43,313 nt of DNA. Origin: Euryarchaeota archaeon UBA40 (GTDB lineage Archaea; Thermoplasmatota; Poseidoniia; Poseidoniales; Thalassarchaeaceae). Made by a program: the position numbers and the translations under genes. The stretch covers positions 1 to 43,313 of the forward strand of contig DAYJ01000014.1 of NCBI GenBank assembly GCA_002506875.1, given 5' to 3'. Below the pieces are notes generated by a model that worked only from the letters and a program-made list of their open reading frames with translations, was not told the DNA's origin and searched no databases. Below are positions 1 to 43,313 of this stretch, piece after piece; position 1 is the first letter of the stretch; every line of letters begins with the position of its first letter.

Positions 1-398
1 CCCTGTTGACGCATTTCTCCATTGACTGATAACTGCACTTCGAATACCCCCTCTTTGTAAGGGTGCCATGGACCGTGAGGTGCTGAATTCGGGAACGCTT
101 TCGCATCACTCCAGGGTAAACCATCACGTTTTGCGATCTCTTGTTCAGTTCGATTTGTTAGATCTAAGCCGACACACATGGCATCCGGACGTCCATTTTG
201 GCCAATTCTGAATACTATCTCTACTTCATGATGAATAGTACATGAGGGATTAGGATGAGGCATTTCTCCGACTCCACTCTCAAATGAGAGAAGGCTCGCA
301 GGAGGCATTAGAAAGAAGAGGGGGACACTAGGTGGATCTGAACCCATCTCCTTCGCATGGGCATGATAGTTCCGTAGAACACCCCAGCCCATCGCCAT
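1..398 (-). CDS. Fumarylacetoacetate hydrolase (FAH) family protein, FAHD1/YcgM-like. Only the N-terminal 132 codons are present; the gene runs off the left edge.
   Basis: I translated the minus strand from the ATG at 398-396: MAMGWGVLRNYHAHAKEMGSDPPSVPLFFLMPPASLL..HHEVEIVFRIG..GLPWSDAKAF..LSVNGEMRQQ. It shows the RNY-H-E, FL-P, HHE-E and LPW-AK-F blocks typical of FAH-fold enzymes. It is not in the ORF track because there is no stop codon in the window. Confidence 0.75.
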   Translation of the reverse strand, partial: MAMGWGVLRNYHAHAKEMGSDPPSVPLFFLMPPASLLSFESGVGEMPHPNPSCTIHHEVEIVFRIGQNGRPDAMCVGLDLTNRTEQEIAKRDGLPWSDAKAFPNSAPHGPWHPYKEGVFEVQLSVNGEMRQQ

Positions 399-477
399 GT
401 CAATAATTACGAGGAACTGCATTACAGGCCTTGCGGTGCGGCGGGACATTCATTGGACGTCAGAAGGAGGAGATGGT

Positions 478-996
478 ATGGCAAAGCGGAGGATGAGGAA
501 GAGGAAGCCAGTACGACTGAAGGTCGTACGACGCATCCTTGATTCCCTCAATGAGAATCTAGGCATCGAAGATGACTTCTCCGACGTATTCCTTGAAATC
601 GCTGAATTCGGTGAACTAAATCTCCTACTTGGTGATCGTGTTCCTCTCGTGATGACAATTGATCGACCAGATGATTTAGGTGATGTTGGAGCAGTGATTT
701 TTCCTACGCTTCGTGGACTCTTACGTTGGAATCTTGAGGTTAAGTGGTGCGCAGTCGACAGAGGCGCAATTCCATTTCTGATGAATGGTGCAGACTGTAT
801 GGCGGCAGGCGTACAGATGGTTGACCCAAACATCGAACGAGGCGATCTAATCTGGATTCGTGACGAGGAACATGGTAAACCAATCGCAATGGGATGGGCA
901 TTGTTAGATGCTGAGGAAATGAATGCTGCCATCAAAGGCAAGGCTCTCAGAACAATCCACTGGATTGGTGATGACTTGTGGGAAGTTGAGAGTTAA
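478..996 (+). CDS. PUA-domain RNA-binding protein (archaeal COG2016/MCT-1-like)
   Basis: I trimmed ORF 397..996 to the ATG at 478, which has AAGGAGGAG at 464-472. A basic N-terminus is followed by a PUA-like C-terminal half (DRGAIPFLMNGADCMAAGV..GDLIWIRDEEHGKPIAMGWAL). Confidence 0.7.
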   Translation: MAKRRMRKRKPVRLKVVRRILDSLNENLGIEDDFSDVFLEIAEFGELNLLLGDRVPLVMTIDRPDDLGDVGAVIFPTLRGLLRWNLEVKWCAVDRGAIPFLMNGADCMAAGVQMVDPNIERGDLIWIRDEEHGKPIAMGWALLDAEEMNAAIKGKALRTIHWIGDDLWEVES

Positions 997-1056
997 GAAA
1001 TATAGTATCAGGAATAGCAAATCGTTGAATAGGTCAAGTACACGAACAACATATGC

Positions 1057-1632
1057 ATGAGGCCTCTGATTCCACTTGCAATAGTCATGATTCTCATCTC
1101 TGCAGCCACCGTCTCTGCTGCATCAGAAGGCGGCGTAAACAAATCAGTTGACGAACTTTCAGATTCAGGACTTGACAATGTGGATTCCCCCTCTGTCTTC
1201 AGTCAAGATGGGGATTTCGTAATCAGTGTAAGTATCAACGAAAGTTCGGACGCAGTGAAAATTTATGCAACCACACAGATTTGTGTCAACTCTGGCCTCT
1301 GTTACCCACCTGAACAAACTGAGATGATAACTGGAGATAATGTCACATGGACCACCACTGTATCGCCAATGATTGATCAGACCTATGTGAATTGGAATAT
1401 TATTCTTGAAAACGCATCAGAGAACCAAACGAAAATTCCTGAGACAGGATTCGGTTGGAAGGTCTGGTCCGATTGTTGGAATGATGGAACTGATTGGGGC
1501 GGTGAAGGTTACGATGGTGGTGAAAGTTGTAACGATAGTAATTCAGAAGATTCTAGCCGAGCTGTTCCCACTGTTGGTATCGCAGCAGTAATCTCAGTAT
1601 TCGTAATGGCTGCAATCATCCGTCATCGTTGA
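1057..1632 (+). CDS. Secreted, probably glycosylated surface protein with a C-terminal TM anchor
   Basis: N-terminal signal peptide (MRPLIPLAIVMILISAATVSAAS), several N-x-S/T sequons, and a Ser-rich linker. The C-terminus is a hydrophobic helix plus a basic tail (VPTVGIAAVISVFVMAAIIRHR). Confidence 0.6.
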   Translation: MRPLIPLAIVMILISAATVSAASEGGVNKSVDELSDSGLDNVDSPSVFSQDGDFVISVSINESSDAVKIYATTQICVNSGLCYPPEQTEMITGDNVTWTTTVSPMIDQTYVNWNIILENASENQTKIPETGFGWKVWSDCWNDGTDWGGEGYDGGESCNDSNSEDSSRAVPTVGIAAVISVFVMAAIIRHR

Positions 1633-2062
1633 TTGTAACATGTTCAATAAATCGAGATAGGCAACGCCTTGCTTCAATCCCCCAAGCTTCAATTGTCACT
1701 TGAGCCCCACATCCATCAACATCGATTTTTCCTTCTCTTAATCCCGGTGATGCAAGGTCACTAGGGACAAACGGAAGACGATGCTTGCTCTCAAAGGTAA
1801 GTTGGATGGCATCATCGCCTATGTCTACCGTTAATCCTTGAACTGAGAGGCTTCCGTCCTCAATGGATTCTATTTCACATCCAATCGATCGGAGGTGACG
1901 CACTACTGCATCGAAAATCTCCTCAGGAGGAGCCTTTGCTTGCGATATATCGTCTTCCACCTCGGATGCAGGACCATATGCAGAGAGAAACGGGAGATCC
2001 ATCTCATTCTGGGCCATGAGATCGTCTAGCCCACGACCAAGTCCACGTCTCTCATCACTCAT
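1616..2062 (-). CDS. Small ParA-partner candidate. It has a ParB-type N-terminal peptide (MSDERRGLGRGLDDLM) but no recognisable ParB HTH or ParB/Srx domain.
   Basis: I trimmed ORF 1616..2185 to the ATG at 2062-2060. That ATG lies 7 nt after AGGAGGT (complement of 2070-2076) and overlaps the ParA stop by 8 nt (ATGAGTGATGA). The RGLGRGL motif is the conserved ParA-activating N-terminus of bacterial ParB. Confidence 0.7.
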   Translation of the reverse strand: MSDERRGLGRGLDDLMAQNEMDLPFLSAYGPASEVEDDISQAKAPPEEIFDAVVRHLRSIGCEIESIEDGSLSVQGLTVDIGDDAIQLTFESKHRLPFVPSDLASPGLREGKIDVDGCGAQVTIEAWGIEARRCLSRFIEHVTINDDG

Positions 2063-3008
2063 CTCGAAGACCTCCTGGAAACCAGATTGCTTCCAGTTCG
2101 GTAGCCAATGCTGCATAATCTTGGCCACCATGACTCTGTGGAGCATGGAACTGAATCGGTACACCTTGACTCGGGGATTCTGCAAGGCGAATGTTACGTC
2201 GAATCGCCGGCTCTATGACCAAATCTCCGAAGACCTCTCTGAGATGTCCTGCAACCTGTGTATTCAGGAGAGTTGGTGCATGCATAGTCATAATCACGCC
2301 ATCCACGCCAAGACGTGGATTGAGTAAACGTCGCACTTCATTGAGAGTTCCTGTCAACAATGCAACTCCTTCCAGAGCAAGATACTCTGTTTGTACTGGT
2401 ATTAACACGGCGTCTGAAGCCGCCAGCGCATTGATTGACACGATACTCAATGAAGGAGCTGTATCGATTAGGATTAGATCGTAATGTGGCTTGAGTGGTT
2501 CAAGAGCCTCACTAAGACGGTTTTCTCGCCCTAGTTGTGATGCAAGAGCCTCCTCCAATCCAATGAGATTCCTATCACCTACTATCAGATGTAGCCCATC
2601 CACAGCAGTCGCATGCCGGGCTTGTGTCGCCATAGCAGGTGTAAGTACAACATCTCTCGTCGTAATTGTGACTCGTGACTTGTCAATACCTAATCCTGAA
2701 GCACAATTCCCCTGAGCATCACAATCCACAACAAGAACACGCCCCCCTCGCATCGCAACATGTGCTGCGATATTGATTACCGAGGTGGTCTTTCCAACTC
2801 CACCTTTCTGATTGGTCACGGTAACTACACGTGCAAGGCCTGCAACTGTTGGTTCTGCCCTAGGTAATTCGATGGACTCACGAGGACGTGCCTTCGTATC
2901 GAATCCCTCTGATTCAATTGGATGTTCAACTTCGTTGAATGAGACATCTGTGATGAGATTATCATCAATAGATAATATGTCCACGACCGGATACTCATCC
3001 GAACCCAT
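2055..3008 (-). CDS. parA: ParA/Soj family partition ATPase (deviant Walker A) with an acidic N-terminal extension of about 70 aa
   Basis: Motifs VTVTNQKGGVGKTT, VLVVDCDAQGN, LILIDTAPSL and PVQTEYLALEG. I chose the start at ATG 3008, preceded by GAGGTAA. The longer ORF start at 3035 has no SD. Confidence 0.9.
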   Translation of the reverse strand: MGSDEYPVVDILSIDDNLITDVSFNEVEHPIESEGFDTKARPRESIELPRAEPTVAGLARVVTVTNQKGGVGKTTSVINIAAHVAMRGGRVLVVDCDAQGNCASGLGIDKSRVTITTRDVVLTPAMATQARHATAVDGLHLIVGDRNLIGLEEALASQLGRENRLSEALEPLKPHYDLILIDTAPSLSIVSINALAASDAVLIPVQTEYLALEGVALLTGTLNEVRRLLNPRLGVDGVIMTMHAPTLLNTQVAGHLREVFGDLVIEPAIRRNIRLAESPSQGVPIQFHAPQSHGGQDYAALATELEAIWFPGGLRDE

Positions 3009-3071
3009 CGTTACCTCAGCGAATGCCTGAGGCATTCAAGGTGACGCCCGTATAGAGGTTAGAGTGACGTT

Positions 3072-5171
3072 TCATTCAGTCGTACTTTGGAGCCAGCCTA
3101 CCATCCGGCCTCGTTCTGCATCCATTATCAGATCGAAAGAGTTCTCTGAATTCCCATCTGTCCATGATCTGGAGGCGGTGAAGGTAACCTCGCCCTCATC
3201 GATATCATCAATAAAATCGAGAAGATCTGTATCTTGAGTAACTACGAGACGTGAAGTGAATTCAACGTCTGAACGTAGCACACCTCCATCCATCAGCACC
3301 TGAGTCGCTCCAAGGAAGTCCGAAGTATCCATCATTCTGGATTGCATCTCAGCAATGGACAATGTATTGGGAATCGCGTTGAGGTTGTACTCCGGCGCAT
3401 CCGACGGGGCAAGCGTTCCGTCATTCACAACAGTGCAATCGGTGCCTGAAGAACGTACCAAAGTCCATCCTGCATCCGAATCAGGATCAACCCAACTGAG
3501 GTTCCATGTCTCTTCAGCACCATCATTTGCATGATTCATTCTGTACAGATAACCATCGTTATTGAGGGCAGAACGTACACCATTTCCAGCGCTCGAATTC
3601 ATGAGACATTCAACTGCTTCTTCAACTGTAAATGCATGAATTGTCGATTCGTCAGGCATATGGCCATCCCACTGCACCTGCGTATTTGGAATCCCTTCAC
3701 CTGCCCCTGGTCGACTATTGTATAGGTCGCCCCAAACAATGGCACGTTCCCCAGCAGTGAAAGTAGATTCACGAAGTGTGTAAGTAATCACCAATTGACC
3801 ATCAGGAACAGCGAAGTCGAGAGCTGCGGATTCATGCCAACTACAATCACTTGATTCACGTGCCTTGTCAATCAGAATATCCACCTTCTGCTCCACGGGC
3901 CACGGCGCCCCCTCTCGTACAAGAAGGTCAAGTTTCGCATGTCCAAGACATGTGGCAATACTAGGTTGCTCCATCTTGATAGGAACAAGAAGTTCGCCGT
4001 TTACACGCTGCGCTGGTTCAACTGTATAGTCCCAACCTTCCGCAGTTCCGGTAGAACCCTCTTCAAGAAGAATGGAACCGAAGGTAGAGCGTAAATCCAA
4101 CGGAACAGCGGGTTGCAAAAAGAGCGGTAATGCTTCATCTACAGCTGCGATTCCTGTACCTCCAAAGGCGGTGTTCTGCAACATACTCCGGTCCCCATCT
4201 GGAGTGACAAAATCCACTGTCGCTTCAGAACGGATTGTTGTCGCTTCAGTCAACTCCTCCCAAGAAGTAACGGATATATCTACTGAATTCGCATTCATTT
4301 CCCATGTAAGACTACTACTACAACGACTTCCGTCCGTAGTCCATGTCCTTCCTGAGAGGTCGGTTAGAAGATCGTAAGAAAGCGATCGTTCGGCTGCAAG
4401 ATGAATGCGGCCATAACCATCCCTCGTCTCAGTAGCCCCTGCATTATCCCGATCAGTAGGGTCACCAATCTCCGATGTCGGAGCATCACGATAGGCAATA
4501 CTTGACATCCCATTCATCGTAATTGCAAGATCTCCACAAGCCTTCTCCAACGCAGAACCTGTATTATCACGAAGCAGAGCGACCATGTCGTTACCATTTA
4601 CCTGAACTGAACCACCCGTCATCGTGAACTCCATACTATCTCCATAGCGTGCAGGTTCAACAGCGAAAGCTTGCTGATCCTGCATCCAAGTCCACCAGTA
4701 GCCTCCACCAGCCAAAGCCGCTACTAGTAGGAGGCCTCCAAGGAAAATGGCTCGGCTTGACTTCCTACTATCACCTAGGGACATTGATGCGTTTGGCTTA
4801 CTGCGAGCCTCGGACCTCGGCTTTGCTTCCGACGGATCTACAATTACGGCTTCGAGAATTGTTGCCTCAAGAACCTCGGTACTATCTTTCTCTACCTTTA
4901 CTTCAATTACAGAAGGTGGATCTTCTGAAGGAATATCTAGTGATTCAATCTCCTCCTCTTCGAGCAGGAGGAAGCTATCATCGTCGTTGGATTCTTGAAT
5001 CTCTGATGGAGTATCTTCATCGGAATCCTCAGTATCCTGTTCATCAAGTCGCAGAGAATCGATAATGCGATCAATCAATTCTGACTTTTTACCAGAACGT
5101 GGGAGCCCCATCGCTTCGAGAAGAACCTTGAGATCAGCGACTGTTCGCTTCTCGAGATCACTTCGCTTCAT
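3072..5171 (-). CDS. Single-pass membrane protein: cytoplasmic N-terminal SAP/HeH-like motif, acidic linker, one TM helix, and a ~530-aa extracytoplasmic domain
   Basis: TVADLKVLLEAMGLPRSGKKSELIDRIIDSL fits the SAP (or Rho_N/HeH) helix-extension-helix pattern. A basic stretch precedes the TM AIFLGGLLLVAALAGGGYWWTW, which implies N-in topology. The large C-terminal part has no recognised family. Confidence 0.6.
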   Translation of the reverse strand: MKRSDLEKRTVADLKVLLEAMGLPRSGKKSELIDRIIDSLRLDEQDTEDSDEDTPSEIQESNDDDSFLLLEEEEIESLDIPSEDPPSVIEVKVEKDSTEVLEATILEAVIVDPSEAKPRSEARSKPNASMSLGDSRKSSRAIFLGGLLLVAALAGGGYWWTWMQDQQAFAVEPARYGDSMEFTMTGGSVQVNGNDMVALLRDNTGSALEKACGDLAITMNGMSSIAYRDAPTSEIGDPTDRDNAGATETRDGYGRIHLAAERSLSYDLLTDLSGRTWTTDGSRCSSSLTWEMNANSVDISVTSWEELTEATTIRSEATVDFVTPDGDRSMLQNTAFGGTGIAAVDEALPLFLQPAVPLDLRSTFGSILLEEGSTGTAEGWDYTVEPAQRVNGELLVPIKMEQPSIATCLGHAKLDLLVREGAPWPVEQKVDILIDKARESSDCSWHESAALDFAVPDGQLVITYTLRESTFTAGERAIVWGDLYNSRPGAGEGIPNTQVQWDGHMPDESTIHAFTVEEAVECLMNSSAGNGVRSALNNDGYLYRMNHANDGAEETWNLSWVDPDSDAGWTLVRSSGTDCTVVNDGTLAPSDAPEYNLNAIPNTLSIAEMQSRMMDTSDFLGATQVLMDGGVLRSDVEFTSRLVVTQDTDLLDFIDDIDEGEVTFTASRSWTDGNSENSFDLIMDAERGRMVGWLQSTTE

Positions 5172-5266
5172 CGGATCATGCTCCCTTTCCTTGCATGGAC
5201 GTCTCCGTCGTCACTATCAAACCGTTGGACTCGCAGTGTGAATGATGGAGATTTGAGACCCTACCA

Positions 5267-6544
5267 CTAGTTGCCGCGATGTTGTGCGATTTGTTCCGGT
5301 GACCATCCTGCAGCAAGTAGTTGTTCATCGGTATATCCACCAATCTGTGCAGACCCTGAATTGTCACTATCAGTGCCACTCTGCTCAACCTCGGCAGGAG
5401 ATTCGGTAGCTGATTCAACCGGGGATTCATCCTCGGAAAGTGCCTCCTCAGGCATGGTCGGACTTTCGTTGGTAGCATCAGTGTTCTCTGCGCCAGTAGT
5501 TAGATCCATGCCGAGTTCTCGCTCAGCATCTGCTGCATCAAGTACCTGTTCTTCTGTTGATTTATCTGAAGCCTCTGGATATCTGACTCTCTTGTATGCA
5601 GCACCTGCCTTCTGTGCAGCAATGATGGTAGCTACCAGTAGAGGGAGGATAATGAGGCATATTGGAAGCAATAAAGCGCGTGGCCAGAACATCTGAGCCT
5701 CTGCATCCACAGTGGCCTTCCACTGAGAGTTCGTGCCCTGCCATTGGTCCGAACTCAATTGTTGACCTTCGATGTACTGGAACACGAGGCAATGCCGTCC
5801 CGGCTTCACTGTAAGGGCATATTCCACCTCTTGACCTGAAGGAAGAGCAGGTGCATCTGACTGATCATAACGAATCACCTGAGATTCTGTTGTGATATCT
5901 TCCATCTCTGAGGAGGTTTCCCATGGGAGAGCGGATGGCATCATCGCGCAGCCGTTAGGGGCCTCAAATAAACCAAGGCGAAAAGAGGTGTTTCCGCCAT
6001 CGAATCGATGGCCTTTGAGACTCACTTTGACCTGAACATCATTGATTGGACCCAGATCCAGAATCGGGAAACCGATTATCAATTGATTCAAATCTTGTTC
6101 GAACGAGCCAGCATTGGGATCACTGCCATCCCAAATCTTGTTTTCTGCACGGTCATTAACCTCCTCTAGCGACCAATGAGGATTCGGATTCGCATCTGAA
6201 GTATCCATCCAAGACTCGACCTCGATTGCACTAAGGTTCTGATGAGGATTCTCGGAATGGTTTCCTTGTGTCACAGGGAAAAACGAGAACGTGAATAGAA
6301 TAGTAAGGACTCCAAGAACAAGATAAACATTCATTCTCTTATTGGAGCGGTTCTCCTTGAGATTACTCAATTGCTTTTCGCGCCGCTCCTTGCGATTTCT
6401 TCGATCTTCCATCTCAGAGATGGGGTCAAACGCTGCTGCTGGAGCGGATTTAGGCCCAACAGGTGGTGCCACTGATGGGCCCTGTACAGAGGCAGGTGTC
6501 TCTGCTGATGATACCTCGCTAGCGGGTGGATTCCCGGGTTGCAT
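5267..6544 (-). CDS. Two-TM membrane protein with a basic N-terminal and an acidic C-terminal cytoplasmic region around a ~240-aa ectodomain
   Basis: ORF 5267..6574 begins with TTG. The first ATG is at 6544. TM1 is MNVYLVLGVLTILFTFSFF, preceded by RRNRKERREK. TM2 is ALLLPICLIILPLLVATIIAA, followed by KAGAAYKRVR. No family recognised. Confidence 0.5.
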   Translation of the reverse strand: MQPGNPPASEVSSAETPASVQGPSVAPPVGPKSAPAAAFDPISEMEDRRNRKERREKQLSNLKENRSNKRMNVYLVLGVLTILFTFSFFPVTQGNHSENPHQNLSAIEVESWMDTSDANPNPHWSLEEVNDRAENKIWDGSDPNAGSFEQDLNQLIIGFPILDLGPINDVQVKVSLKGHRFDGGNTSFRLGLFEAPNGCAMMPSALPWETSSEMEDITTESQVIRYDQSDAPALPSGQEVEYALTVKPGRHCLVFQYIEGQQLSSDQWQGTNSQWKATVDAEAQMFWPRALLLPICLIILPLLVATIIAAQKAGAAYKRVRYPEASDKSTEEQVLDAADAERELGMDLTTGAENTDATNESPTMPEEALSEDESPVESATESPAEVEQSGTDSDNSGSAQIGGYTDEQLLAAGWSPEQIAQHRGN

Positions 6545-6653
6545 GGCTTGACCGATGACGGACTTCGATTTCAATCGAACCCATGTCTTCGATGCGCCCT
6601 CTCAAGGGATGATTTGAAAATGGAAAGGGGTGGCTCGGTCAATGATGAGGGCG

Positions 6654-7805
6654 ATGCGTCTGTGTATCTTATCCCGCGGCCCGCAGCTGTATAGCACGCG
6701 GCGTTTGGTAAAAGAAGCAGAAAATCGCGGAGCAGAGGTAGAAATTGTCGACCCGTTAGAAACAAGCCTAGTTCTCGGCGAACGGAATGGACAGGTTATC
6801 CACCGTGGCTGGCCCATTCAGGCTGACGCTGTGATTCCAAGAATTGGTTACTCCGTGACATCTGAAGGGGTACGTGTTGTCCGACAGTTTGAGTCACAAG
6901 GCGTCTATGTTGCCAACTCAGCCGACTCCATCCTTCAAAGTCGAGACAAACTGACTGCATCTCAAATTCTATCGCACCAGGGAATCCCAGTCCCACGAAC
7001 CGCACTCGTAACCTCTTGGCGAGATACAGAAAGGGCGATCTCGAGAGTTGGAGGAGTGCCTTGCGTGATTAAGGCGAGTCAAGGGACTCAAGGAAATTCT
7101 GTCCATCTTGCTCATTCAATCCGAGATGCAAGCGAACTCGTCTATCGTTTACTCGCAAATCGAGAAACTGTTCTCGTCCAGGAGTATATTCGAGAAAGTC
7201 ACGGAAGAGATGTACGTGTAATTGTGGCTGGAGGCGAAGTAGTTGCTGCGATGCGTCGCGTGGCGAGGGGACGTGAATTCCGGTCAAACTTCCATCTTGG
7301 AGGACAAGTGGAAGCGATTGAATTGATGGATGAATACGCTAAGGTTGCTATTCGTGCCGCAAATCTGCTTGGCATTGAGGTCGGTGGTGTCGATCTCCTT
7401 GAGGGACGAAGCGGGCCAATCCTTCTCGAAGTTAATTCGAGTCCGGGGCTTGAAGGAATTGAGAAGGCTTCGAAAATAAATGTTGCAGGGAAGATTATCG
7501 ACATGATTTCACAGCGTCACAGAATTCAGTCCACCGACCTTCAAGAGGTTATTCGCCGTCGCTCCGGTCATGGAGCATTGACTGTCCGGATCAAGGATTG
7601 GCCAGAATTCATTGGACGACGAATCAAAGACGTGCAAATGGGAGAATCACGTGCATTGACGCTATTGCGTGGTAAGGACCACATCTGGTCTCCCAACGAG
7701 GATCTCGTTCTACAGCCAAATGATGAACTCGTGATCTATGGAGAAATCGCGTCCATTCGCGCTCATATGCAAAGGCGCAATACTGCTTCGGAAGAAAGAT
7801 TCTGA
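6654..7805 (+). CDS. rimK: RimK-type ATP-grasp alpha-L-glutamate ligase fused to a C-terminal TrkA_C/RCK_C-like domain
   Basis: MRLCILSRGPQLYSTRRLVKEAENRGA aligns with the E. coli RimK N-terminus as I recall it. An ATP-grasp core is present (VIKASQGTQG, VLVQEYI, GVDLLE..LLEVNSSPGLEGIE). The last ~70 aa (VRIKDWPEFIGRRIKDVQMGE..LLRGKDHIWSPNEDLVLQPNDELVIYGE) fit the TrkA_C pattern. The start could instead be 6630 (GTG) or 6642. Confidence 0.8.
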   Translation: MRLCILSRGPQLYSTRRLVKEAENRGAEVEIVDPLETSLVLGERNGQVIHRGWPIQADAVIPRIGYSVTSEGVRVVRQFESQGVYVANSADSILQSRDKLTASQILSHQGIPVPRTALVTSWRDTERAISRVGGVPCVIKASQGTQGNSVHLAHSIRDASELVYRLLANRETVLVQEYIRESHGRDVRVIVAGGEVVAAMRRVARGREFRSNFHLGGQVEAIELMDEYAKVAIRAANLLGIEVGGVDLLEGRSGPILLEVNSSPGLEGIEKASKINVAGKIIDMISQRHRIQSTDLQEVIRRRSGHGALTVRIKDWPEFIGRRIKDVQMGESRALTLLRGKDHIWSPNEDLVLQPNDELVIYGEIASIRAHMQRRNTASEERF

Positions 7806-7890
7806 CGATCAATTCCCCCACTCGACCCCCTGTTGAAATGAGAGGGTTCAAACCCGACACCTCGTTCCACATTTACCCTTCGGGGATGGG

Positions 7891-8943
7891 ATGGGACCCA
7901 TGGACGACCAACGACAGCGGAGCGGATGGGCTGCAGATGGCCCAGCGGGCCGCATCGCTACTCCTTTTGATTCATCTATCACAGGCAACAACCAAGTTCT
8001 CCCTGCACGCTTAGTTCGAATTCAGCATCTTGCCTGTCTTCCGCTTTGGGAGACCCAATTAAGATCTGAAAAGAAGAGTAATCATACAATTCGATCATAT
8101 ATGTCCACAGCACGACGATTCTCAGCGACAATTATTCCTGGAGAAGAGGAGGTTGATATCGAGGAAATATCAATCACAGAAATGCACGACCGCTGTAATC
8201 CAAACAACGGACGACTAGACCTATTCATTCAGGCCATCGCTAATCTAAGACCTGCGACAATCAACGCACGTATTGCTGCAGTAAGTCATCTGTTTCGTTA
8301 CATAGGGCACCGGATACCCGATTGGGTACATCGCCCCACTGCTTCTCGGCCTCTACCACGAACCCTCACTAGAGAAGAGGTCATGCGTGTTCGTAGGGCT
8401 GCTCAAGATTCAGAAAACCCCCTTGCTCATCCCATCATCACGCTTCTCCTTGATACCGGAATGCGTGTATCCGAGTTATGCGCTCTTGAGACTGGGACCA
8501 TCGATCTAGCTGACTGTTCAGCCAGAGTCTATGGAGGTAAGGGTGACAAGGATCGTACCGTACTATTCACAGAGCGCTCAGTAGATGCGATGGAAGCCTG
8601 GTTCGGGACACGGAGATTATTGATTCAAAGAAAGAATCCCCCTAACGACGATGTAGATGCCGTTTTCCTAACCAATCGCGTTGCACGTATCAGTACCCGC
8701 TATGTTCAGAAAATGATGGATGTCATTGCTGACGATGCCCTCATCCCGAGAACACGTCTGACACCTCATACCCTAAGACACAATTTCGCAACAGGCCTTC
8801 TTGAACGAGGAGTTGATCTTGTCTCAATCCAGAGGCTTCTAGGGCATTCCAACATTCAGACGACGCGGATTTATCTAGACATCAGTGATCAAACGTTGAG
8901 AGAAATCTACCATCGGGCCCAAAGTGCGTCTCTAGAAGAGTAA
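7891..8943 (+). CDS. xerA: Tyrosine recombinase, XerA/XerC/XerD-like
   Basis: Catalytic signature TGMRVSEL (Arg), GKGDKDR (Lys), HTLRHNFAT (H-x-x-R), LLGHSNIQTTRIY (His/Tyr). There are about 45 extra residues N-terminal to the core-binding domain. Confidence 0.85.
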   Translation: MGPMDDQRQRSGWAADGPAGRIATPFDSSITGNNQVLPARLVRIQHLACLPLWETQLRSEKKSNHTIRSYMSTARRFSATIIPGEEEVDIEEISITEMHDRCNPNNGRLDLFIQAIANLRPATINARIAAVSHLFRYIGHRIPDWVHRPTASRPLPRTLTREEVMRVRRAAQDSENPLAHPIITLLLDTGMRVSELCALETGTIDLADCSARVYGGKGDKDRTVLFTERSVDAMEAWFGTRRLLIQRKNPPNDDVDAVFLTNRVARISTRYVQKMMDVIADDALIPRTRLTPHTLRHNFATGLLERGVDLVSIQRLLGHSNIQTTRIYLDISDQTLREIYHRAQSASLEE

Positions 8944-9141
8944 TCACCGTTTCCGGCCTGGTCGCTTCTTGTTCTCACGCTTTTCGATATCTTCGGGACC
9001 TGTCCAATCCTTGGTTGCACGAACAATATTGCCAGTATGGCCTGGAATCGGACAGTGCTTACCAGAACGGCAACGAGAGCAATTGTCCTTGGGCGGAATC
9101 TCAAGAGGCTTCGTTAGCCGCCCGTACTTCCGCCTTGGCAT
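8944..9141 (-). CDS. Small, very basic protein with a zinc-knuckle-like Cys/His cluster
   Basis: 65 aa. CSRCRSGKHCPIPGH gives a C-x2-C-x4-H-(C)-x4-H pattern. Both ends are Lys/Arg-rich. It lies 38 nt downstream of the HhH gene on the same strand. No family recognised. Confidence 0.4.
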   Translation of the reverse strand: MPRRKYGRLTKPLEIPPKDNCSRCRSGKHCPIPGHTGNIVRATKDWTGPEDIEKRENKKRPGRKR

Positions 9142-9179
9142 GATTGCATTCCCGAGTTGAGGGGAGATAGTGAATGCGG

Positions 9180-9548
9180 TTAATCCGAGCGTCGAATACG
9201 CTTCATCATATCCTTAACACTCTTCGGAGCACTCAACTTTTTACCGATTTGATCGCCACGAACACCACTCTCTGTATCACTGATAGTAGACTTAGAAGAA
9301 GGGGCCTTCTTTGCTGGCTTCTCGGTTATCTTCTTCTTGGCCTTGGTAATTGCACTGGATGCGACCGCTTTGGCAATCTTGGTTGCAGTTCCTGCACTGA
9401 TGCCCGCTGCCTTGAGACCCTTAAGGCCGGCTTTAGCGACATCTGCCTTGGATTTCATACCAGCACCTGCCAACTTCTTCGCCGTTGCTTCCCCAACACC
9501 TGGGATAGCAGTCAACGCATCAATCACCTTCTTGCTTGGCTTCGCCAT
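9180..9548 (-). CDS. Helix-hairpin-helix (HhH) protein, Lys/Ala-rich; likely non-specific DNA binding
   Basis: I trimmed ORF 9180..9584 to ATG 9548 (MAKPSKK). It has the HhH motif LTAIPGVGEATAKKLAGAG and a second GISAGTATKIAKA, followed by a KKKITEKPAKKAPSSK tail. Confidence 0.55.
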   Translation of the reverse strand: MAKPSKKVIDALTAIPGVGEATAKKLAGAGMKSKADVAKAGLKGLKAAGISAGTATKIAKAVASSAITKAKKKITEKPAKKAPSSKSTISDTESGVRGDQIGKKLSAPKSVKDMMKRIRRSD

Positions 9549-9603
9549 GGTTAGGTTGGATTCTCGGCCGTGTATGAACATCACGCTGCATTACACCGGA
9601 TGA

Positions 9604-10386
9604 ATGATGACCGAGGGATGGAATCCAATCTCCATGGAGGACCGGTTCATCCTATGGGCGCAAGTGCGAAGTGGCACTCCGAGAATGCGTATCGACTCAG
9701 GAGGAGTCCTGCGGCCAGAACGATGGCCTGAGGGTGGAGGAATAGTATACCTCGGCGATGTTGCGAGTTCCTTCCTCAGCGCACTAGGACCGCATGCACC
9801 TCCAGAATTCATCGAACGTCCGGGATTCGACGAACAACGATGGACTCTAGCAGCATCCTCTAGCGGCTTACAGATTATCATCCGCAGCGAATCGTACTGG
9901 GGTTTCGCGCTGCTTGCTCGATGTTATCTAAACCGTATCGAGATTATTGGTGAACGCAGTGATGTCGGTCGGCTCGTGATGGATGTCTTAGCTAGCCTTG
10001 GCCATAATCCATGGAATGCTGCATTTGGTTGGGCTTTCAAACGGCATACGAACCTATCAATCCCTGAACATCGAGAAGAATGGTCAGGATTAGCGTCTTC
10101 AGGTAAAGAGGAAATGGATGCTGCAATCGATCTACTTGAGGATAGATTACGAAAACTGCAAGCAGGAAGTGAGAATGTTAGAAAGGTCCATGTCGAAGAA
10201 GCCAGAAATGACATCGATCGAGCAAGAAAAGCACTTCTCGAACGAAACCTACCTTCCGCGATGCGCGCAATGGCTCGTGCTGAGAAAGAACTCATCCTCG
10301 CAGACCCTGATACTAGATCGGATATTGATAAAATGGAAGAGAATGATGAGGGAATTCCCTATGTCGATCTGACTGGTGAGGAATAA
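9604..10386 (+). CDS. Hypothetical protein with a helical, coiled-coil-like C-terminal third and an acidic C-terminus
   Basis: Long ORF with no competing frame. No recognised motifs. C-terminus is ..MEENDEGIPYVDLTGEE. Confidence 0.45.
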   Translation: MMTEGWNPISMEDRFILWAQVRSGTPRMRIDSGGVLRPERWPEGGGIVYLGDVASSFLSALGPHAPPEFIERPGFDEQRWTLAASSSGLQIIIRSESYWGFALLARCYLNRIEIIGERSDVGRLVMDVLASLGHNPWNAAFGWAFKRHTNLSIPEHREEWSGLASSGKEEMDAAIDLLEDRLRKLQAGSENVRKVHVEEARNDIDRARKALLERNLPSAMRAMARAEKELILADPDTRSDIDKMEENDEGIPYVDLTGEE

Positions 10387-10575
10387 TCAACCAATTTTTT
10401 CCCAAATCCACTGCCAGACGCCGTGGTTTGCAAGATAAATGACGATAGATAAGGCAAAACAAGCTGCATATACTGCACTCTTCGGAATTTGAAGGGCATC
10501 TTCAGACTCCTCATCGAAGTACCGAATGAGCCCTGCAGCTTGCTGGATGCCGCTGTTATCCTTCTTCTTCGCCAT
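10387..10575 (-). CDS. secG: Preprotein translocase Sec61-beta (archaeal SecG/Sec-beta)
   Basis: MAKKKDNSGIQQAAGLIRYFDEE followed by a single C-terminal TM (AVYAACFALSIVIYLAN). This is the hallmark AGLIRYFDE box of archaeal and eukaryotic Sec61-beta. An alternative start lies at 10584. Confidence 0.8.
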   Translation of the reverse strand: MAKKKDNSGIQQAAGLIRYFDEESEDALQIPKSAVYAACFALSIVIYLANHGVWQWIWEKIG

Positions 10576-42606: not shown

Positions 42607-43313
42607 ATGGCCCTTCCGACGACGCTCCGCATCGGAGACATCGTCGTTCACATTACTAGTATCCAGAATGACATTGACGAAGAGGACCGGGATGCAATTC
42701 TCATTGGAATTGTAGTCCAGAATAGCAGTTCGGAAGATGCTTCTGGAATTTCGCTATCGATAGAGACCTCTGGTGCAATAACTAGTGTTTTCAAGGCACT
42801 TCCATCAAACATCCCTTCTGGCACTGCAAACGAGGCGATGTTCTTCCTTCCTATTGGCTGCGGTGCCTGGATGCTTTCAGTCACTCATGCTGGTCTACGT
42901 GGAGAATTGGGCCCCTTCCCTGATGGTCATCGGCATGTGATTGAGGCTCCATCCCTCTCCGAATCAATCTCATCTACTTCGACTAGTAATTCAAGCACTG
43001 GAGGTGATGCTTTTGCTGATGCCTTCCAATCTGCGCTCTCTAGCTTCGGCTCTGAAACAACAGCAGATGCAGCAATTCAGATGAATGGAGACGATCCACT
43101 TGCAGCAGCATTCATGAATTCAGGAGCCGCACAAATTCGCACTTCAACACCTGATACAGTGCAACAGGTGCCACCATCTCCGCCTACACCACCGGTTCCA
43201 TCTCCACCAACCTCATCTGAAACTTCAGAAATTGTGACTGCAAATACTCCTACTGATTCACCTGAATCAACGATTGAGGCTGGACCTCAAATGGGACCTG
43301 GACCAAGGGGGCC
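42607..43313 (+). CDS. Hypothetical protein with a Ser/Thr/Pro-rich C-terminal part. Partial; it runs off the right edge.
   Basis: My own translation from ATG 42607 is open to the window end: MALPTTLRIGDIVVHITSIQNDIDEEDRDAILIGIVVQNSS..PPSPPTPPVPSPPTSSE... Not in the ORF track because it has no stop. Confidence 0.5.
   Translation, partial: MALPTTLRIGDIVVHITSIQNDIDEEDRDAILIGIVVQNSSSEDASGISLSIETSGAITSVFKALPSNIPSGTANEAMFFLPIGCGAWMLSVTHAGLRGELGPFPDGHRHVIEAPSLSESISSTSTSNSSTGGDAFADAFQSALSSFGSETTADAAIQMNGDDPLAAAFMNSGAAQIRTSTPDTVQQVPPSPPTPPVPSPPTSSETSEIVTANTPTDSPESTIEAGPQMGPGPRG

What the first reader, a model, noticed from the sequence alone, without database searches (positions are those of the whole stretch)
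1616..6574. Candidate membrane-anchored DNA partition or tethering module: two membrane proteins, ParA, and a ParB-peptide adaptor in one minus-strand cluster
Four consecutive minus-strand genes make up the cluster. The first is a 2-TM protein with a basic N-terminal and an acidic C-terminal cytoplasmic region (5267-6544). The second is a single-pass protein whose cytoplasmic N-terminus is a SAP/HeH DNA-binding-type motif (3072-5171). The third is a Soj-type ParA (2055-3008). The fourth is a 148-aa protein with only the ParA-activating GLGRGL peptide (1616-2062), and its ATG overlaps the ParA stop. I recognise no canonical ParB (HTH plus ParB/Srx domain) and no SegB-like RHH partner. The only DNA-binding-type module in the cluster sits on a membrane protein. 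That layout suggests ParA-driven positioning of DNA relative to the membrane. It is conceptually similar to eukaryotic HeH/LEM/SAP inner-nuclear-membrane tethers. I do not know of a described archaeal system with this composition, and I cannot search the literature here.
Basis: partly seen in the sequence, partly recalled or inferred. Interest (0 to 1): 0.75.

Follow-up and report, generated by a model that had tools for sequence, protein, structure and literature searches.

The report
ParB-less ParA operon with membrane partners
Marine Group II archaea carry a bacterial-type ParA ATPase, but the short peptide that normally switches ParA on sits on a small lineage-specific protein, or directly on a membrane transporter, instead of on the DNA-binding protein ParB; the gene always lies next to a membrane protein with a DNA-binding-type SAP domain, which points to an undescribed link between chromosome and cell membrane.

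Summary
Four co-oriented minus-strand genes encode:
- g1, a 2-TM protein;
- g2, a single-pass protein with an N-terminal SAP domain (Pfam E 7.6e-11);
- a Soj-type ParA (best PDB matches are bacterial ParA/Soj, E 1e-54);
- g4, a 148-aa protein whose N-terminus carries the ParB-type ParA-binding motif LGRGLxxL[LIM].

The motif occurs once in the six-frame window. The g4 ATG overlaps the ParA stop codon.

g4 has more than the peptide. It also has a second conserved motif (DLPFLSAYG) and a confidently modelled, acidic ~100-aa domain with no PDB relative.

All relatives are Poseidoniales. Across 80 species-level loci the module is plastic:
- Type I (~34 loci): g1-g2-ParA-g4.
- Type II (21 loci, one clade): no g1 and no g4 domain; in 14 the peptide is fused to a 10-TM EamA protein.
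- Type III (9 loci): g1-g2-g4-like, no ParA.

ParA lies downstream of g2 wherever it occurs, nearly always immediately.

Best reading: the ParA activator is membrane-tethered, so the system couples the nucleoid to a membrane complex. No function has been tested, and a ParB encoded elsewhere in the genome is not excluded. I rate it a new variant of the ParA/adaptor kind.

The parts
5267..6544 (-). g1: 425-aa two-pass membrane protein. N- and C-termini are cytoplasmic by the positive-inside rule. It has a ~190-aa external loop and an acidic C-tail ending in YTDEQLLAAGWSPEQIAQHR.
   Evidence: ORF; hydropathy and charge; no Pfam or NCBIfam family. Homologues lie directly upstream of g2 in type I and type III loci and are absent from all type II loci.
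3072..5171 (-). g2: 699-aa single-pass membrane protein with a cytoplasmic SAP domain, an acidic linker, one TM segment and a ~530-aa external beta-rich domain with 6 conserved cysteines.
   Evidence: The family was found only in Poseidoniales: 58 protein clusters and 158 genome loci. The ectodomain has only weak fold matches (DUF1849 6NTR E 4.7e-4, LolA-like).
5049..5159 (-). SAP (helix-extended loop-helix) domain of g2, residues 5-41.
   Evidence: Pfam PF02037 E 7.6e-11, above the gathering score. Invariant L14, G27, K29, L32, R35 across homologues down to 26% identity. AF2 gives two helices at pLDDT about 80. pI 9.4.
4839..4877 (-). Conserved acidic amphipathic motif EVLEATILEAVIV (g2 residues 99-111) in the otherwise variable cytoplasmic linker.
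   Evidence: A103 and A108 are invariant and E102 nearly invariant across all three locus types. Its partner is unknown.
4692..4751 (-). Transmembrane segment of g2, residues 141-160.
   Evidence: Hydropathy. It is preceded by a basic stretch (KPRSEARSK...RKSSR).
2055..3035 (-). Soj-type ParA ATPase, 326 aa (alternative start at 3008 gives 317 aa), with a ~65-aa acidic N-terminal extension.
   Evidence: Mapping onto M. xanthus ParA and TtSoj: signature Lys K77 and catalytic D106 are kept. DNA-contact positions read P254/R266/R280/R283 (TtSoj R182/R194/R208/R211; R283 corresponds to Mx R238). Peptide-pocket residues L196, I198, I201 and L238 are kept.
1616..2062 (-). g4: 148-aa acidic protein (pI 4.3), translationally coupled to ParA.
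   Evidence: The family has only 68 cluster representatives among 1.84 billion proteins.
2015..2047 (-). ParB-type ParA-binding motif RGLGRGLDDLM (g4 residues 6-16).
   Evidence: It is the only match to L[GSA][RK]GL..L[LIMV] in the window. The residue pattern equals the functional residues of M. xanthus ParB (PMC12462528). It is invariant or nearly invariant in homologues next to ParA.
1973..1999 (-). Second conserved motif DLPFLSAYG (g4 residues 22-30).
   Evidence: Invariant columns D22 L23 P24 F25 L26 Y29 G30. It is retained in ParA-less type III homologues and, as GPDLxS[YF]VS, in the EamA fusions.
1619..1930 (-). g4 C-terminal alpha/beta domain (residues 45-148), net charge -11.
   Evidence: AF2 pLDDT is mostly 80-96. 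No significant fold match in PDB: best E 0.097, TM 0.31. No sequence relative in PDB. Acidic in the great majority of homologues.

Best explanation
This is a ParB-less, Soj-type ParA module specific to Poseidoniales, in which the ParA activator is tethered to the membrane.

Shown by sequence:
- The ParA is of the bacterial chromosomal kind.
- It keeps the catalytic residues and three of the four Soj DNA-contact arginines. One of them is the equivalent of M. xanthus R238, whose loss abolishes non-specific DNA binding.
- The ParB-type ParA-binding motif is carried either by g4, a small acidic protein with a novel fold, or, in one clade, by the cytoplasmic N-terminus of a 10-TM EamA protein.
- Wherever ParA is present it lies downstream of g2, a single-pass membrane protein with a cytoplasmic SAP domain, nearly always immediately.

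Inferred:
- ParA-ATP dimers sit on the nucleoid.
- They are captured, and their ATPase is triggered, by the peptide held at the membrane. The peptide is held there through g4 bound to g1 and/or g2, or directly on EamA.
- The SAP domain of g2 adds a direct, ATP-independent contact with DNA.

The net effect would be a dynamic coupling between the nucleoid surface and a membrane or envelope complex. It would work like the diffusion-ratchet systems in which ParA-like ATPases position cargo through an adaptor that bears an N-terminal peptide.

Unresolved: whether the chromosome is positioned relative to the envelope, or the membrane complex is distributed over the nucleoid.
For: - ParA class and residues: with PMC6393308 and PMC12462528.
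- The peptide matches the functional ParB motif and is unique in the window.
- g4 is unlikely to be a centromere binder. Its C-domain has pI 4.4, no HTH, RHH or ParB fold and no Pfam or NCBIfam hit.
- Natural 'Rosetta-stone' fusion: 14 species-level genomes have [KR]GLGRGL...GPDLxS[YF]VS fused in frame to EamA immediately after ParA. The fusion is kept while the EamA bodies diverge to 51% identity.
- g1 and the g4 domain co-occur in all type I and type III loci and are both missing from the EamA clade. This is what one expects if g4 plus g1 is replaced by peptide-on-a-membrane-protein.
- ParA lies downstream of g2 in all 62 informative ParA-containing loci, within about 130 nt in 59 of them.
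- Operon-like spacing: gaps of 95 and 36 nt and an 8-nt overlap.
- A deep-branching lineage (L004) has the full four-gene layout, so the layout is probably ancestral.
Against: - No experiment and no complex model supports any of the proposed contacts.
- The co-loss of g1 and the g4 domain is a single evolutionary event, because type II is one clade.
- Six type II species keep an intact ParA while EamA has lost the peptide, and one has a degenerate RGLGMGL. No other such peptide lies within +/-6 kb. The fusion is therefore dispensable in some lineages, or another activator exists.
- Type III genomes keep g1-g2-g4-like without an adjacent ParA yet retain GRGLDHLI. Either ParA is encoded elsewhere or the N-terminal region has another role.
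- In the window's ParA the residues that receive the peptide arginine in M. xanthus have diverged: Y81->R127, E82->D128, D110->N156, E117->A163. So has the TtSoj R182 position (P254).
- The whole neighbourhood is syntenic across the order, so adjacency is weaker evidence than it would be between distant taxa.
Confidence: 0.4

Rival explanations
1. Conventional two-protein chromosome partition system. g4 is a functional ParB analogue whose C-terminal domain binds a centromere, as HpaB and SegB do for their ParA-like partners. g1 and g2 are unrelated envelope proteins that happen to be neighbours.
For: - ParA and g4 overlap by 8 nt, like parAB, hpaAB and segAB.
- The peptide is of the ParB type.
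- There is precedent for a bacterial-origin ParA paired with a novel archaeal partner (10.1101/2025.11.19.689047).
- ParA keeps most DNA-contact arginines.
Against: - The g4 C-domain is strongly acidic (pI 4.4; net -1 to -12 in nearly all homologues).
- It is modelled as an alpha/beta fold with no HTH or RHH and has no PDB relative.
- In a whole clade this domain is replaced by a 10-TM transporter-type protein, which cannot be a centromere binder.
- There is no parS-like site above chance and no repeat array near the operon.
- g4-like genes persist next to g2 where ParA is absent.
Confidence: 0.15
2. Synteny without shared function. ParA works with a canonical ParB or another partner encoded elsewhere, or acts as an orphan regulator. 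g1-g2 form an envelope or surface complex unrelated to DNA. The conserved order only reflects the generally conserved gene order of Poseidoniales.
For: - Flanking genes (PUA, the 191-aa protein, RimK, Xer, the HhH protein) are just as conserved in position.
- g1-g2 occur without ParA (types III and L010-L012).
- ParA persists after loss of the peptide in six species.
- I could not search whole genomes for ParB.
Against: - The one unambiguous ParA-binding motif in the window sits on the gene coupled to ParA.
- The peptide was retained when its carrier changed from g4 to EamA.
- g2-ParA adjacency survived rearrangements that changed the genes on both sides, such as loss of g1 and insertion of EamA, a nitroreductase or a peptidase.
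- Intergenic gaps are short and all four genes share one strand.
Confidence: 0.2
3. A spatial regulator rather than a partition system. ParA on the nucleoid, activated at the membrane, marks where an envelope process such as division, surface-layer insertion or secretion may or may not take place. This would work like MinD/MinE, MipZ or PomXYZ. The g2 ectodomain would be the effector.
For: - The activator is membrane-located.
- g2 has a large conserved ectodomain with weak LolA/DUF1849-like similarity.
- ParA-like ATPases with non-DNA roles are well known (reviewed in PMC9178275, which was listed but not read).
Against: - The ParA is far closer to chromosomal Soj/ParA (E 1e-54) than to MinD (about 1e-14 to 1e-15); MipZ scored only a weak Pfam match (PF09140, E 1.1e-08 against AAA_31 8.3e-51).
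- No division gene lies in the operon or the window.
- This reading does not explain the SAP domain.
Confidence: 0.15

Closest known systems
Bacterial chromosomal ParABS (Soj/Spo0J; M. xanthus, T. thermophilus, H. pylori)
   Same: - The ParA is the same kind of protein: E 1e-54 to 1e-38 to solved Soj/ParA structures, with the deviant Walker A and the signature lysine.
- Three of the four DNA-contact arginines are kept.
- The partner is encoded immediately downstream and has the same N-terminal LG[RK]GLxxL[LIM] ParA-binding motif.
   Different: - No ParB/Srx CTPase domain, no HTH and no ParB C-terminal domain.
- No parS-like site in the window.
- The peptide carrier is an acidic protein of novel fold or a 10-TM membrane protein.
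- The operon includes two membrane proteins.
- The host is an archaeon.
HpaAB of Haloferax volcanii (bioRxiv 10.1101/2025.11.19.689047) and SegAB of Sulfolobus (PMC8682754, PMC12139799)
   Same: - An archaeal ParA-family ATPase with a non-ParB partner encoded just downstream with a short overlap.
- The partner is thought to contact the ATPase through its N-terminus.
- HpaA is also described as being of bacterial origin.
   Different: - HpaB (predicted RHH) and SegB (DNA-binding fold) are DNA-binding centromere proteins. g4 has neither fold and is acidic.
- HpaA groups with MipZ/McdA and SegA is a distinct type, whereas this ParA is Soj-like.
- Neither system has membrane proteins in the operon or a membrane-fused activator.
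ParA/MinD-like cargo-positioning systems with peptide-bearing adaptors (McdAB, PomXYZ, PpfA-TlpT)
   Same: The logic is the same: a nucleoid-bound ATPase plus an adaptor that carries a short N-terminal activating peptide and links to a non-DNA cargo. (This comparison rests on established knowledge and was not tested here.)
   Different: - Those ATPases are divergent ParA-like proteins with their own peptides. Here a bona fide Soj-type ParA is paired with a bona fide ParB-type peptide.
- The presumptive cargo or anchor is integral to the membrane.
Eukaryotic HeH/LEM/SAP inner-nuclear-membrane tethers (Heh1/Heh2, MAN1, LEM2); bacterial Noc and RacA as membrane-DNA tethers
   Same: A helix-extended loop-helix (SAP) module sits at the cytoplasmic, DNA-facing end of an integral membrane protein. 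The concept is a DNA-membrane tether.
   Different: - No homology beyond the ~35-aa SAP motif.
- DNA binding is untested.
- The rest of g2 is an extracellular domain.
- Noc and RacA are soluble proteins that reach the membrane in other ways.

Membership tests
ParABS (type I chromosomal partition system) | Walker-type ParA with the deviant Walker A (KGGxGKT), closest to Soj/ParA | tested here: met
   AAA_31 E 8e-51. 8RAY E 1.3e-54 and TtSoj E 3.6e-52 against MinD at about 1e-14 to 1e-15. K77 and D106 are kept.
ParABS (type I chromosomal partition system) | ParB with a ParB/Srx CTPase domain and an HTH that binds parS | tested here: not met
   No ParBc or HTH hit in g4 or in any 150-aa-or-longer ORF of the window. 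The g4 profile finds no ParB in PDB. The whole genome could not be searched.
ParABS (type I chromosomal partition system) | N-terminal ParA-binding motif on the partner (L-G-R/K-G-L-x-x-L-L/I) | tested here: met
   g4 residues 8-16 read LGRGLDDLM and are the only match in the window. The functional residues follow PMC12462528.
ParABS (type I chromosomal partition system) | parS centromere sites near the operon | tested here: not met
   The consensus TGTTTCACGTGAAACA with up to 3 mismatches gives 1 hit at 43254, no more than chance. No repeat array in 1-10500. A non-canonical site cannot be excluded.
ParABS (type I chromosomal partition system) | Non-specific DNA binding by ParA through a basic patch | tested here: inconclusive
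   Three of four positions are kept (R266, R280, R283; R283 corresponds to Mx R238). The TtSoj R182 position is Pro, as in the MHxP context of HpSoj. No binding assay is possible with these tools.
SegAB (archaeal) | SegA-type ATPase and a SegB DNA-binding partner with its conserved N-terminal motif | tested here: not met
   The SegA-type chain 7DUT scores only E 2.7e-11 against 1e-54 for Soj. g4 is modelled as an alpha/beta fold, not a helical DNA-binding fold. SegB homologues are reported only in Thermoproteota and a few Euryarchaeota (PMC12139799).
MinD/MinE | MinD-clade ATPase with a C-terminal membrane-targeting helix | tested here: not met
   NCBIfam minD_arch 51.9 bits against a cut-off of 201.75. 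PDB MinD E about 1e-14 to 1e-15. The C-terminus aligns with the last helix of Soj. Amphipathicity was not analysed separately.
SAP/HeH-domain membrane tether | SAP (helix-extended loop-helix) domain | tested here: met
   PF02037 E 7.6e-11, above the cut-off. AF2 gives helices 11-20 and 29-43. G27, K29, L32 and R35 are invariant.
SAP/HeH-domain membrane tether | Integral membrane anchoring with the SAP domain on the DNA-facing side | tested here: met
   Single TM at residues 141-160 with a basic stretch on the N-terminal side. The ectodomain is acidic and has 6 conserved cysteines. This is a prediction only.
SAP/HeH-domain membrane tether | DNA binding by the SAP domain and tethering of DNA to the membrane | not testable with these tools
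   Needs EMSA, ChIP or imaging.
ParA-like cargo positioning with a peptide adaptor (McdAB / PomXYZ type) | An adaptor links the ATPase to a non-DNA cargo | tested here: inconclusive
   Indirect evidence only: the acidic non-DNA-binding-type g4 domain, the peptide-EamA fusions, and the joint presence or absence of g1 and the g4 domain.

The most novel reading that the evidence does not exclude
Poseidoniales archaea attach their nucleoid to the cell envelope through a dedicated complex. It consists of a SAP-domain membrane protein (g2), a 2-TM partner (g1) and a small adaptor (g4). A bacterial-type ParA, switched on by a membrane-held ParB-like peptide, moves or spaces these attachment points so that chromosomes are segregated by way of the membrane. 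This would be a prokaryotic counterpart of HeH/LEM/SAP nuclear-envelope tethers and a modern form of the replicon-model idea of membrane-linked segregation, working without any centromere-binding ParB.
Probability: 0.25. Interest if true: 0.85.

Novelty: new variant of a known kind. Interest (0 to 1): 0.62.

Why it matters
Chromosome segregation in archaea is poorly understood outside Sulfolobus (SegAB) and, recently, Haloferax (HpaAB). Nothing is described for Marine Group II, the most abundant planktonic archaea of surface oceans, and my paper searches found no mention of ParA in this order.

The locus shows that the ParB N-terminal peptide is a portable module. It can be detached from ParB and grafted onto unrelated carriers, including an integral membrane protein.

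If the membrane-tether reading is right, it gives a testable example of ParA-driven coupling between nucleoid and envelope. It also gives a prokaryotic membrane protein with a SAP domain facing the DNA.

The three natural variants (with ParA, with the peptide on EamA, without ParA) amount to a ready-made comparative experiment.

Tried and rejected
1. Fold identification of the g4 domain. Foldseek against PDB gave nothing significant (best hit TraF N-domain, E 0.097, TM 0.31). A profile search against PDB sequences gave only a spurious hit at E 0.3. I rejected the RHH, HTH and ParB C-terminal-domain readings.
2. Fold identification of the g2 ectodomain. Only weak matches to open beta-barrel proteins (DUF1849 6NTR, LolA-like, LmcA). 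This is too weak to assign a function.
3. Search for a centromere. No parS-like site above chance and no repeat arrays.
4. Defence-system or viral origin. PADLOC and PHROGs hit only the generic ParA P-loop. The context is chromosomal housekeeping on contigs of 0.86-1.18 Mb. Rejected.
5. Extending the g4 family beyond Poseidoniales. A profile search of 1.84 billion representatives gave only 68 hits, all small proteins of the same kind or fragments.
6. Testing whether ParA exists elsewhere in type III (Poseidoniaceae) genomes. The ParA homologue search returned only the 120 closest proteins, at 61% identity or more; the few that carry a source name are labelled Thalassarchaeum or Euryarchaeota. 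Unresolved.
7. The idea that this ParA has lost DNA binding because the BsSoj R189 / TtSoj R182 position is Pro. I dropped it after mapping showed the other three positions are kept, including the M. xanthus R238 equivalent, and that HpSoj has the same MHxP context.
8. Literature search for the motif string (GLGRGL / LGRGL) found nothing relevant.

Full report
**1. What is in the window**

Window 1616-6574 holds four co-oriented minus-strand ORFs. I call them g1, g2, ParA and g4.

- **g1 (5267-6544, 425 aa).** It has two hydrophobic segments, at residues 70-94 and 284-316. A basic juxtamembrane stretch precedes the first. After the second comes an acidic tail (net -23) ending in YTDEQLLAAGWSPEQIAQHR. 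It matches no curated family.
- **g2 (3072-5171, 699 aa).** It has a Pfam SAP domain at residues 5-41, E 7.6e-11 and above the gathering score. An acidic linker follows, then one TM segment at residues 141-160, then a ~530-aa external domain.
- **ParA (2055-3035, 326 aa).** The Pfam hit is AAA_31, E 8e-51.
- **g4 (1616-2062, 148 aa).** It begins MSDERRGLGRGLDDLM. Its ATG lies within the last two sense codons and the stop of ParA, an 8-nt overlap.

The gaps are 95 nt between g1 and g2 and 36 nt between g2 and ParA.

The strict ParA-binding pattern L[GSA][RK]GL..L[LIMV] occurs once in the six-frame translation of all 43 kb, at g4 residues 8-16. Composition-matched shuffles give 0.02 per window.

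**2. The ParA**

Its best solved relatives are bacterial chromosomal ParAs:

| Solved structure | E-value |
|---|---|
| M. xanthus ParA (8RAY) | 1.3e-54 |
| T. thermophilus Soj | 3.6e-52 |
| H. pylori Soj | 1.6e-38 |
| MinD | ~1e-14 to 1e-15 |
| SegA-type chain 7DUT | 2.7e-11 |

I mapped the alignments onto published functional residues.

- The signature lysine (K77) and the catalytic Asp (D106) are kept.
- The four-residue DNA patch of Soj is TtSoj R182/R194/R208/R211 (PMC6393308). Here it reads P254/R266/R280/R283.
- R283 is the equivalent of M. xanthus R238, whose mutation removes non-specific DNA binding (PMC12462528).
- The Pro sits in an MHxP context that HpSoj shares.
- The hydrophobic pocket that receives the ParB peptide in M. 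xanthus is L150, L152, L155 and L192. It is kept as L196, I198, I201 and L238.
- The residues said to receive the peptide's arginine have diverged in this lineage: Y81, E82, D110 and E117 become R127, D128, N156 and A163.

I conclude that this is a Soj-type ParA that probably still binds DNA and a ParB-type peptide. This is inference from residues, not a test.

**3. The small protein g4**

PMC12462528 shows that L11, R13, L15, L18 and I19 of M. xanthus ParB are the functional residues of the ParA-binding motif. g4 has L8, R10, L12, L15 and M16 in the same spacing.

g4 has more than this peptide.

- The alignment shows a second invariant block, D22-L-P-F-L-x-x-Y-G30.
- AF2 models residues 45-148 as a compact alpha/beta domain with pLDDT mostly 80-96.
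- That domain has no significant structural match in PDB (best E 0.097, TM 0.31). It also has no sequence relative there.
- It is acidic, with pI 4.4 and net charge -11, and is acidic in the great majority of homologues. DNA-binding proteins in the same window are basic.

This argues against g4 being a centromere-binding ParB analogue of the HpaB or SegB kind.

The family is tiny: 42 clusters in the 5.8-billion-protein search and 68 representatives among 1.84 billion.

**4. g2**

The family has 58 clusters, all with SAP, from marine metagenomes and MAGs named Euryarchaeota, Methanobacteriota or Poseidoniaceae.

Across homologues down to 26% identity the following are conserved:
- the SAP core (L14, G27, K29, L32, R35);
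- a short acidic motif in the linker (EVLEATILEAVIV, residues 99-111);
- the TM region;
- six cysteines of the ectodomain.

AF2 gives two SAP helices (residues 11-20 and 29-43, pLDDT about 80). The linker is disordered, and the ectodomain is confident and beta-rich. Foldseek finds only weak similarity to open-barrel proteins: DUF1849 6NTR at E 4.7e-4, and LolA-like folds.

**5. Comparative genomics**

A scan of one genome per GTDB species with the g2 alignment found 158 relatives, and all 80 that were kept are Poseidoniales. I classified these 80 loci with BLAST and HMM searches.

| Type | Loci | Gene order | Notes |
|---|---|---|---|
| I | ~34 | g1-g2-ParA-g4 | As in the window; peptide [RK][GRV]LGRGL |
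| II | 21 | g2-ParA-EamA | No g1, no g4 domain |
| III | 9 (plus L010-L012) | g1-g2-g4-like | No ParA within +/-6 kb |

Details of type II:
- In 14 species the EamA ORF starts ..[KR]GLGRGL(x11)GPDLxS[YF]VS.. That is the ParB-type peptide plus a version of the second g4 motif, fused in frame to a 10-TM protein.
- The fusion persists while the EamA bodies diverge to 51% identity.
- One species has a degenerate RGLGMGL.
- Six species have EamA without the peptide although ParA is intact. No other such peptide lies nearby.

Details of type III:
- The N-terminus is shortened to M-S-G-R-G-L-D-H-L-I, which loses the first Leu of the motif.
- In the L012 lineage it has decayed further to S-R-D-F-D-H-L-I.
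- The second motif, LxFLSAYG, stays intact.

ParA, when present, lies downstream of g2 in all 62 informative loci. Three loci have a larger gap than usual: about 0.4 kb (L084), 0.6 kb (L032) and 3.6 kb (L066).

A neighbour-joining tree of g2 gives three results.
- Type II is a single clade nested among type I lineages.
- The peptide-less species are nested within type II.
- The deep-branching L004 lineage, which has the full four-gene set, groups beside type III.

The four-gene layout is therefore probably ancestral to the order, with later losses.

**6. What this says about function**

The most informative fact is the natural fusion. When the g4 domain and g1 disappear together, the ParA-binding peptide reappears on an integral membrane protein at the same position in the operon.

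The simplest reading is that the peptide normally works at the membrane. g4 would be the adaptor and g1 and/or g2 the anchor. The second motif, present in all three types, would then contact something common to all three, and g2 is the only cluster gene that fits.

Together with a DNA-binding-competent Soj-type ParA and a SAP domain on the cytoplasmic end of g2, this supports a dynamic nucleoid-membrane coupling. The data do not tell which of the two is the cargo.

Caveats:
- The g1/g4 co-loss is one event.
- The peptide was lost at least twice within type II without loss of ParA.
- Type III keeps part of the peptide without a neighbouring ParA.
- The flanking genes are equally syntenic across the order: the PUA protein, a convergent 191-aa secreted or anchored protein, a divergent RimK-type ligase, a Xer-type recombinase and a small HhH protein.
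- I could not search whole genomes for a ParB or for a second ParA.

**7. Other checks**

- No ParB, SegB-like or Orc1/Cdc6 gene is among the 150-aa-or-longer ORFs of the window. The window otherwise encodes housekeeping functions: cytochrome oxidase, the E1 component of pyruvate dehydrogenase, FEN1, helicases and two tRNAs.
- No parS-like site or repeat array was found.
- There is no defence-system or phage signal.
- Close relatives lie on contigs of 0.86-1.18 Mb near DNA polymerase B and ribosomal protein genes, so the locus is chromosomal.

**8. Comparison with known systems, and novelty**

The system works most like ParA/adaptor positioning systems and uses genuine ParABS parts: a Soj-type ParA and a ParB-type peptide. 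It fails the ParABS membership test on ParB and parS. It fails the SegAB and MinDE tests on the class of ATPase and on the partner fold.

The nearest archaeal precedents are HpaAB (10.1101/2025.11.19.689047) and SegAB (PMC12139799). Both pair a ParA-family ATPase with a DNA-binding partner and have no membrane component.

Paper searches found nothing on ParA in Poseidoniales and nothing on archaeal SAP-domain membrane proteins.

I rate this a new variant of a known kind. It is interesting mainly for two things: the portable ParB peptide, seen here on a membrane protein, and the possible nucleoid-envelope tether. The mechanism remains inferred.

Noticed in passing
L015 11364-12341 (also L040, L041, L043, L045-L047, L049, L051, L054, L059, L060, L063, L065, L068): An EamA/DMT-family 10-TM protein encoded right after ParA carries the ParB-type peptide ([KR]GLGRGL) plus GPDLxS[YF]VS at its N-terminus. 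In L070, L071, L075, L077-L079 the same EamA lacks the peptide, and in L083 it has decayed to RGLGMGL.
   Followed up: yes
window 6630-7805 (+): A RimK-type ATP-grasp ligase with a TrkA_C domain is transcribed divergently from g1. In relatives that lack g1 it is divergent from g2. This adjacency holds in all three locus types, so it is the most constant neighbour of g2. A link between this glutamate-ligase type and the very acidic cytoplasmic segments of g1 and g2 is conceivable but untested.
   Followed up: partly
window 7891-8943 (+) and 9180-9584 (-): A Xer-type tyrosine recombinase and a 134-aa helix-hairpin-helix protein with a lysine-rich tail lie just beyond RimK. Both recur at the same place in relatives (L001, L007, L010). 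I looked for no dif-like site.
   Followed up: no
window 1057-1632 (+): A 191-aa protein with an N-terminal signal-like segment and a C-terminal TM anchor converges on g4 and overlaps its 3' end by 17 nt. Homologues lie downstream of g4, g4-like or EamA in all locus types, directly after g4 or g4-like in many and separated by one or two inserted genes in others. It has only a sub-threshold DsbD_N hit.
   Followed up: partly
window 4839-4877 (g2 residues 99-111): A conserved acidic amphipathic motif, E[VI][LM]EA[ET]I[LV][ED]A.., lies in the otherwise variable and disordered g2 linker. It is present whether or not ParA is in the locus. It may be a docking site for an unknown partner.
   Followed up: partly
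window 5267-5330 (g1 C-terminus); L082: The g1 tail ends in [YW]TDE[QE]L.A.GW[ST]..QI, and L082 has this motif twice. Pfam gives only a sub-threshold SAM_SMF (HhH-like) hit. In type III and in L004 it is replaced by a different terminal motif (GDGW[YF]FRK...YVPY).
   Followed up: partly
L066 8109-11770; L012 10147-15620: Insertions split the cluster in some genomes. In L066 about 3.6 kb lies between g2 and ParA. In L012 an S8 peptidase and a 630-aa gene lie between g2 and the g4-like gene.
   Followed up: no
window 2840-3035 (ParA residues 1-65): ParA has a ~65-aa acidic N-terminal extension. Its distal part (ELPRAEPT.. just before the core) recurs in relatives as LDLPRAAPTPDG. From memory, this resembles the PRP-type extension of some bacterial chromosomal ParAs.
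   Followed up: no
window 3072-4667 (g2 ectodomain): The large external domain of g2 is confidently modelled as beta-rich with six conserved cysteines. It shows only weak similarity to open-barrel, lipid-carrier-like folds (DUF1849, LolA-like, LmcA).
   Followed up: partly
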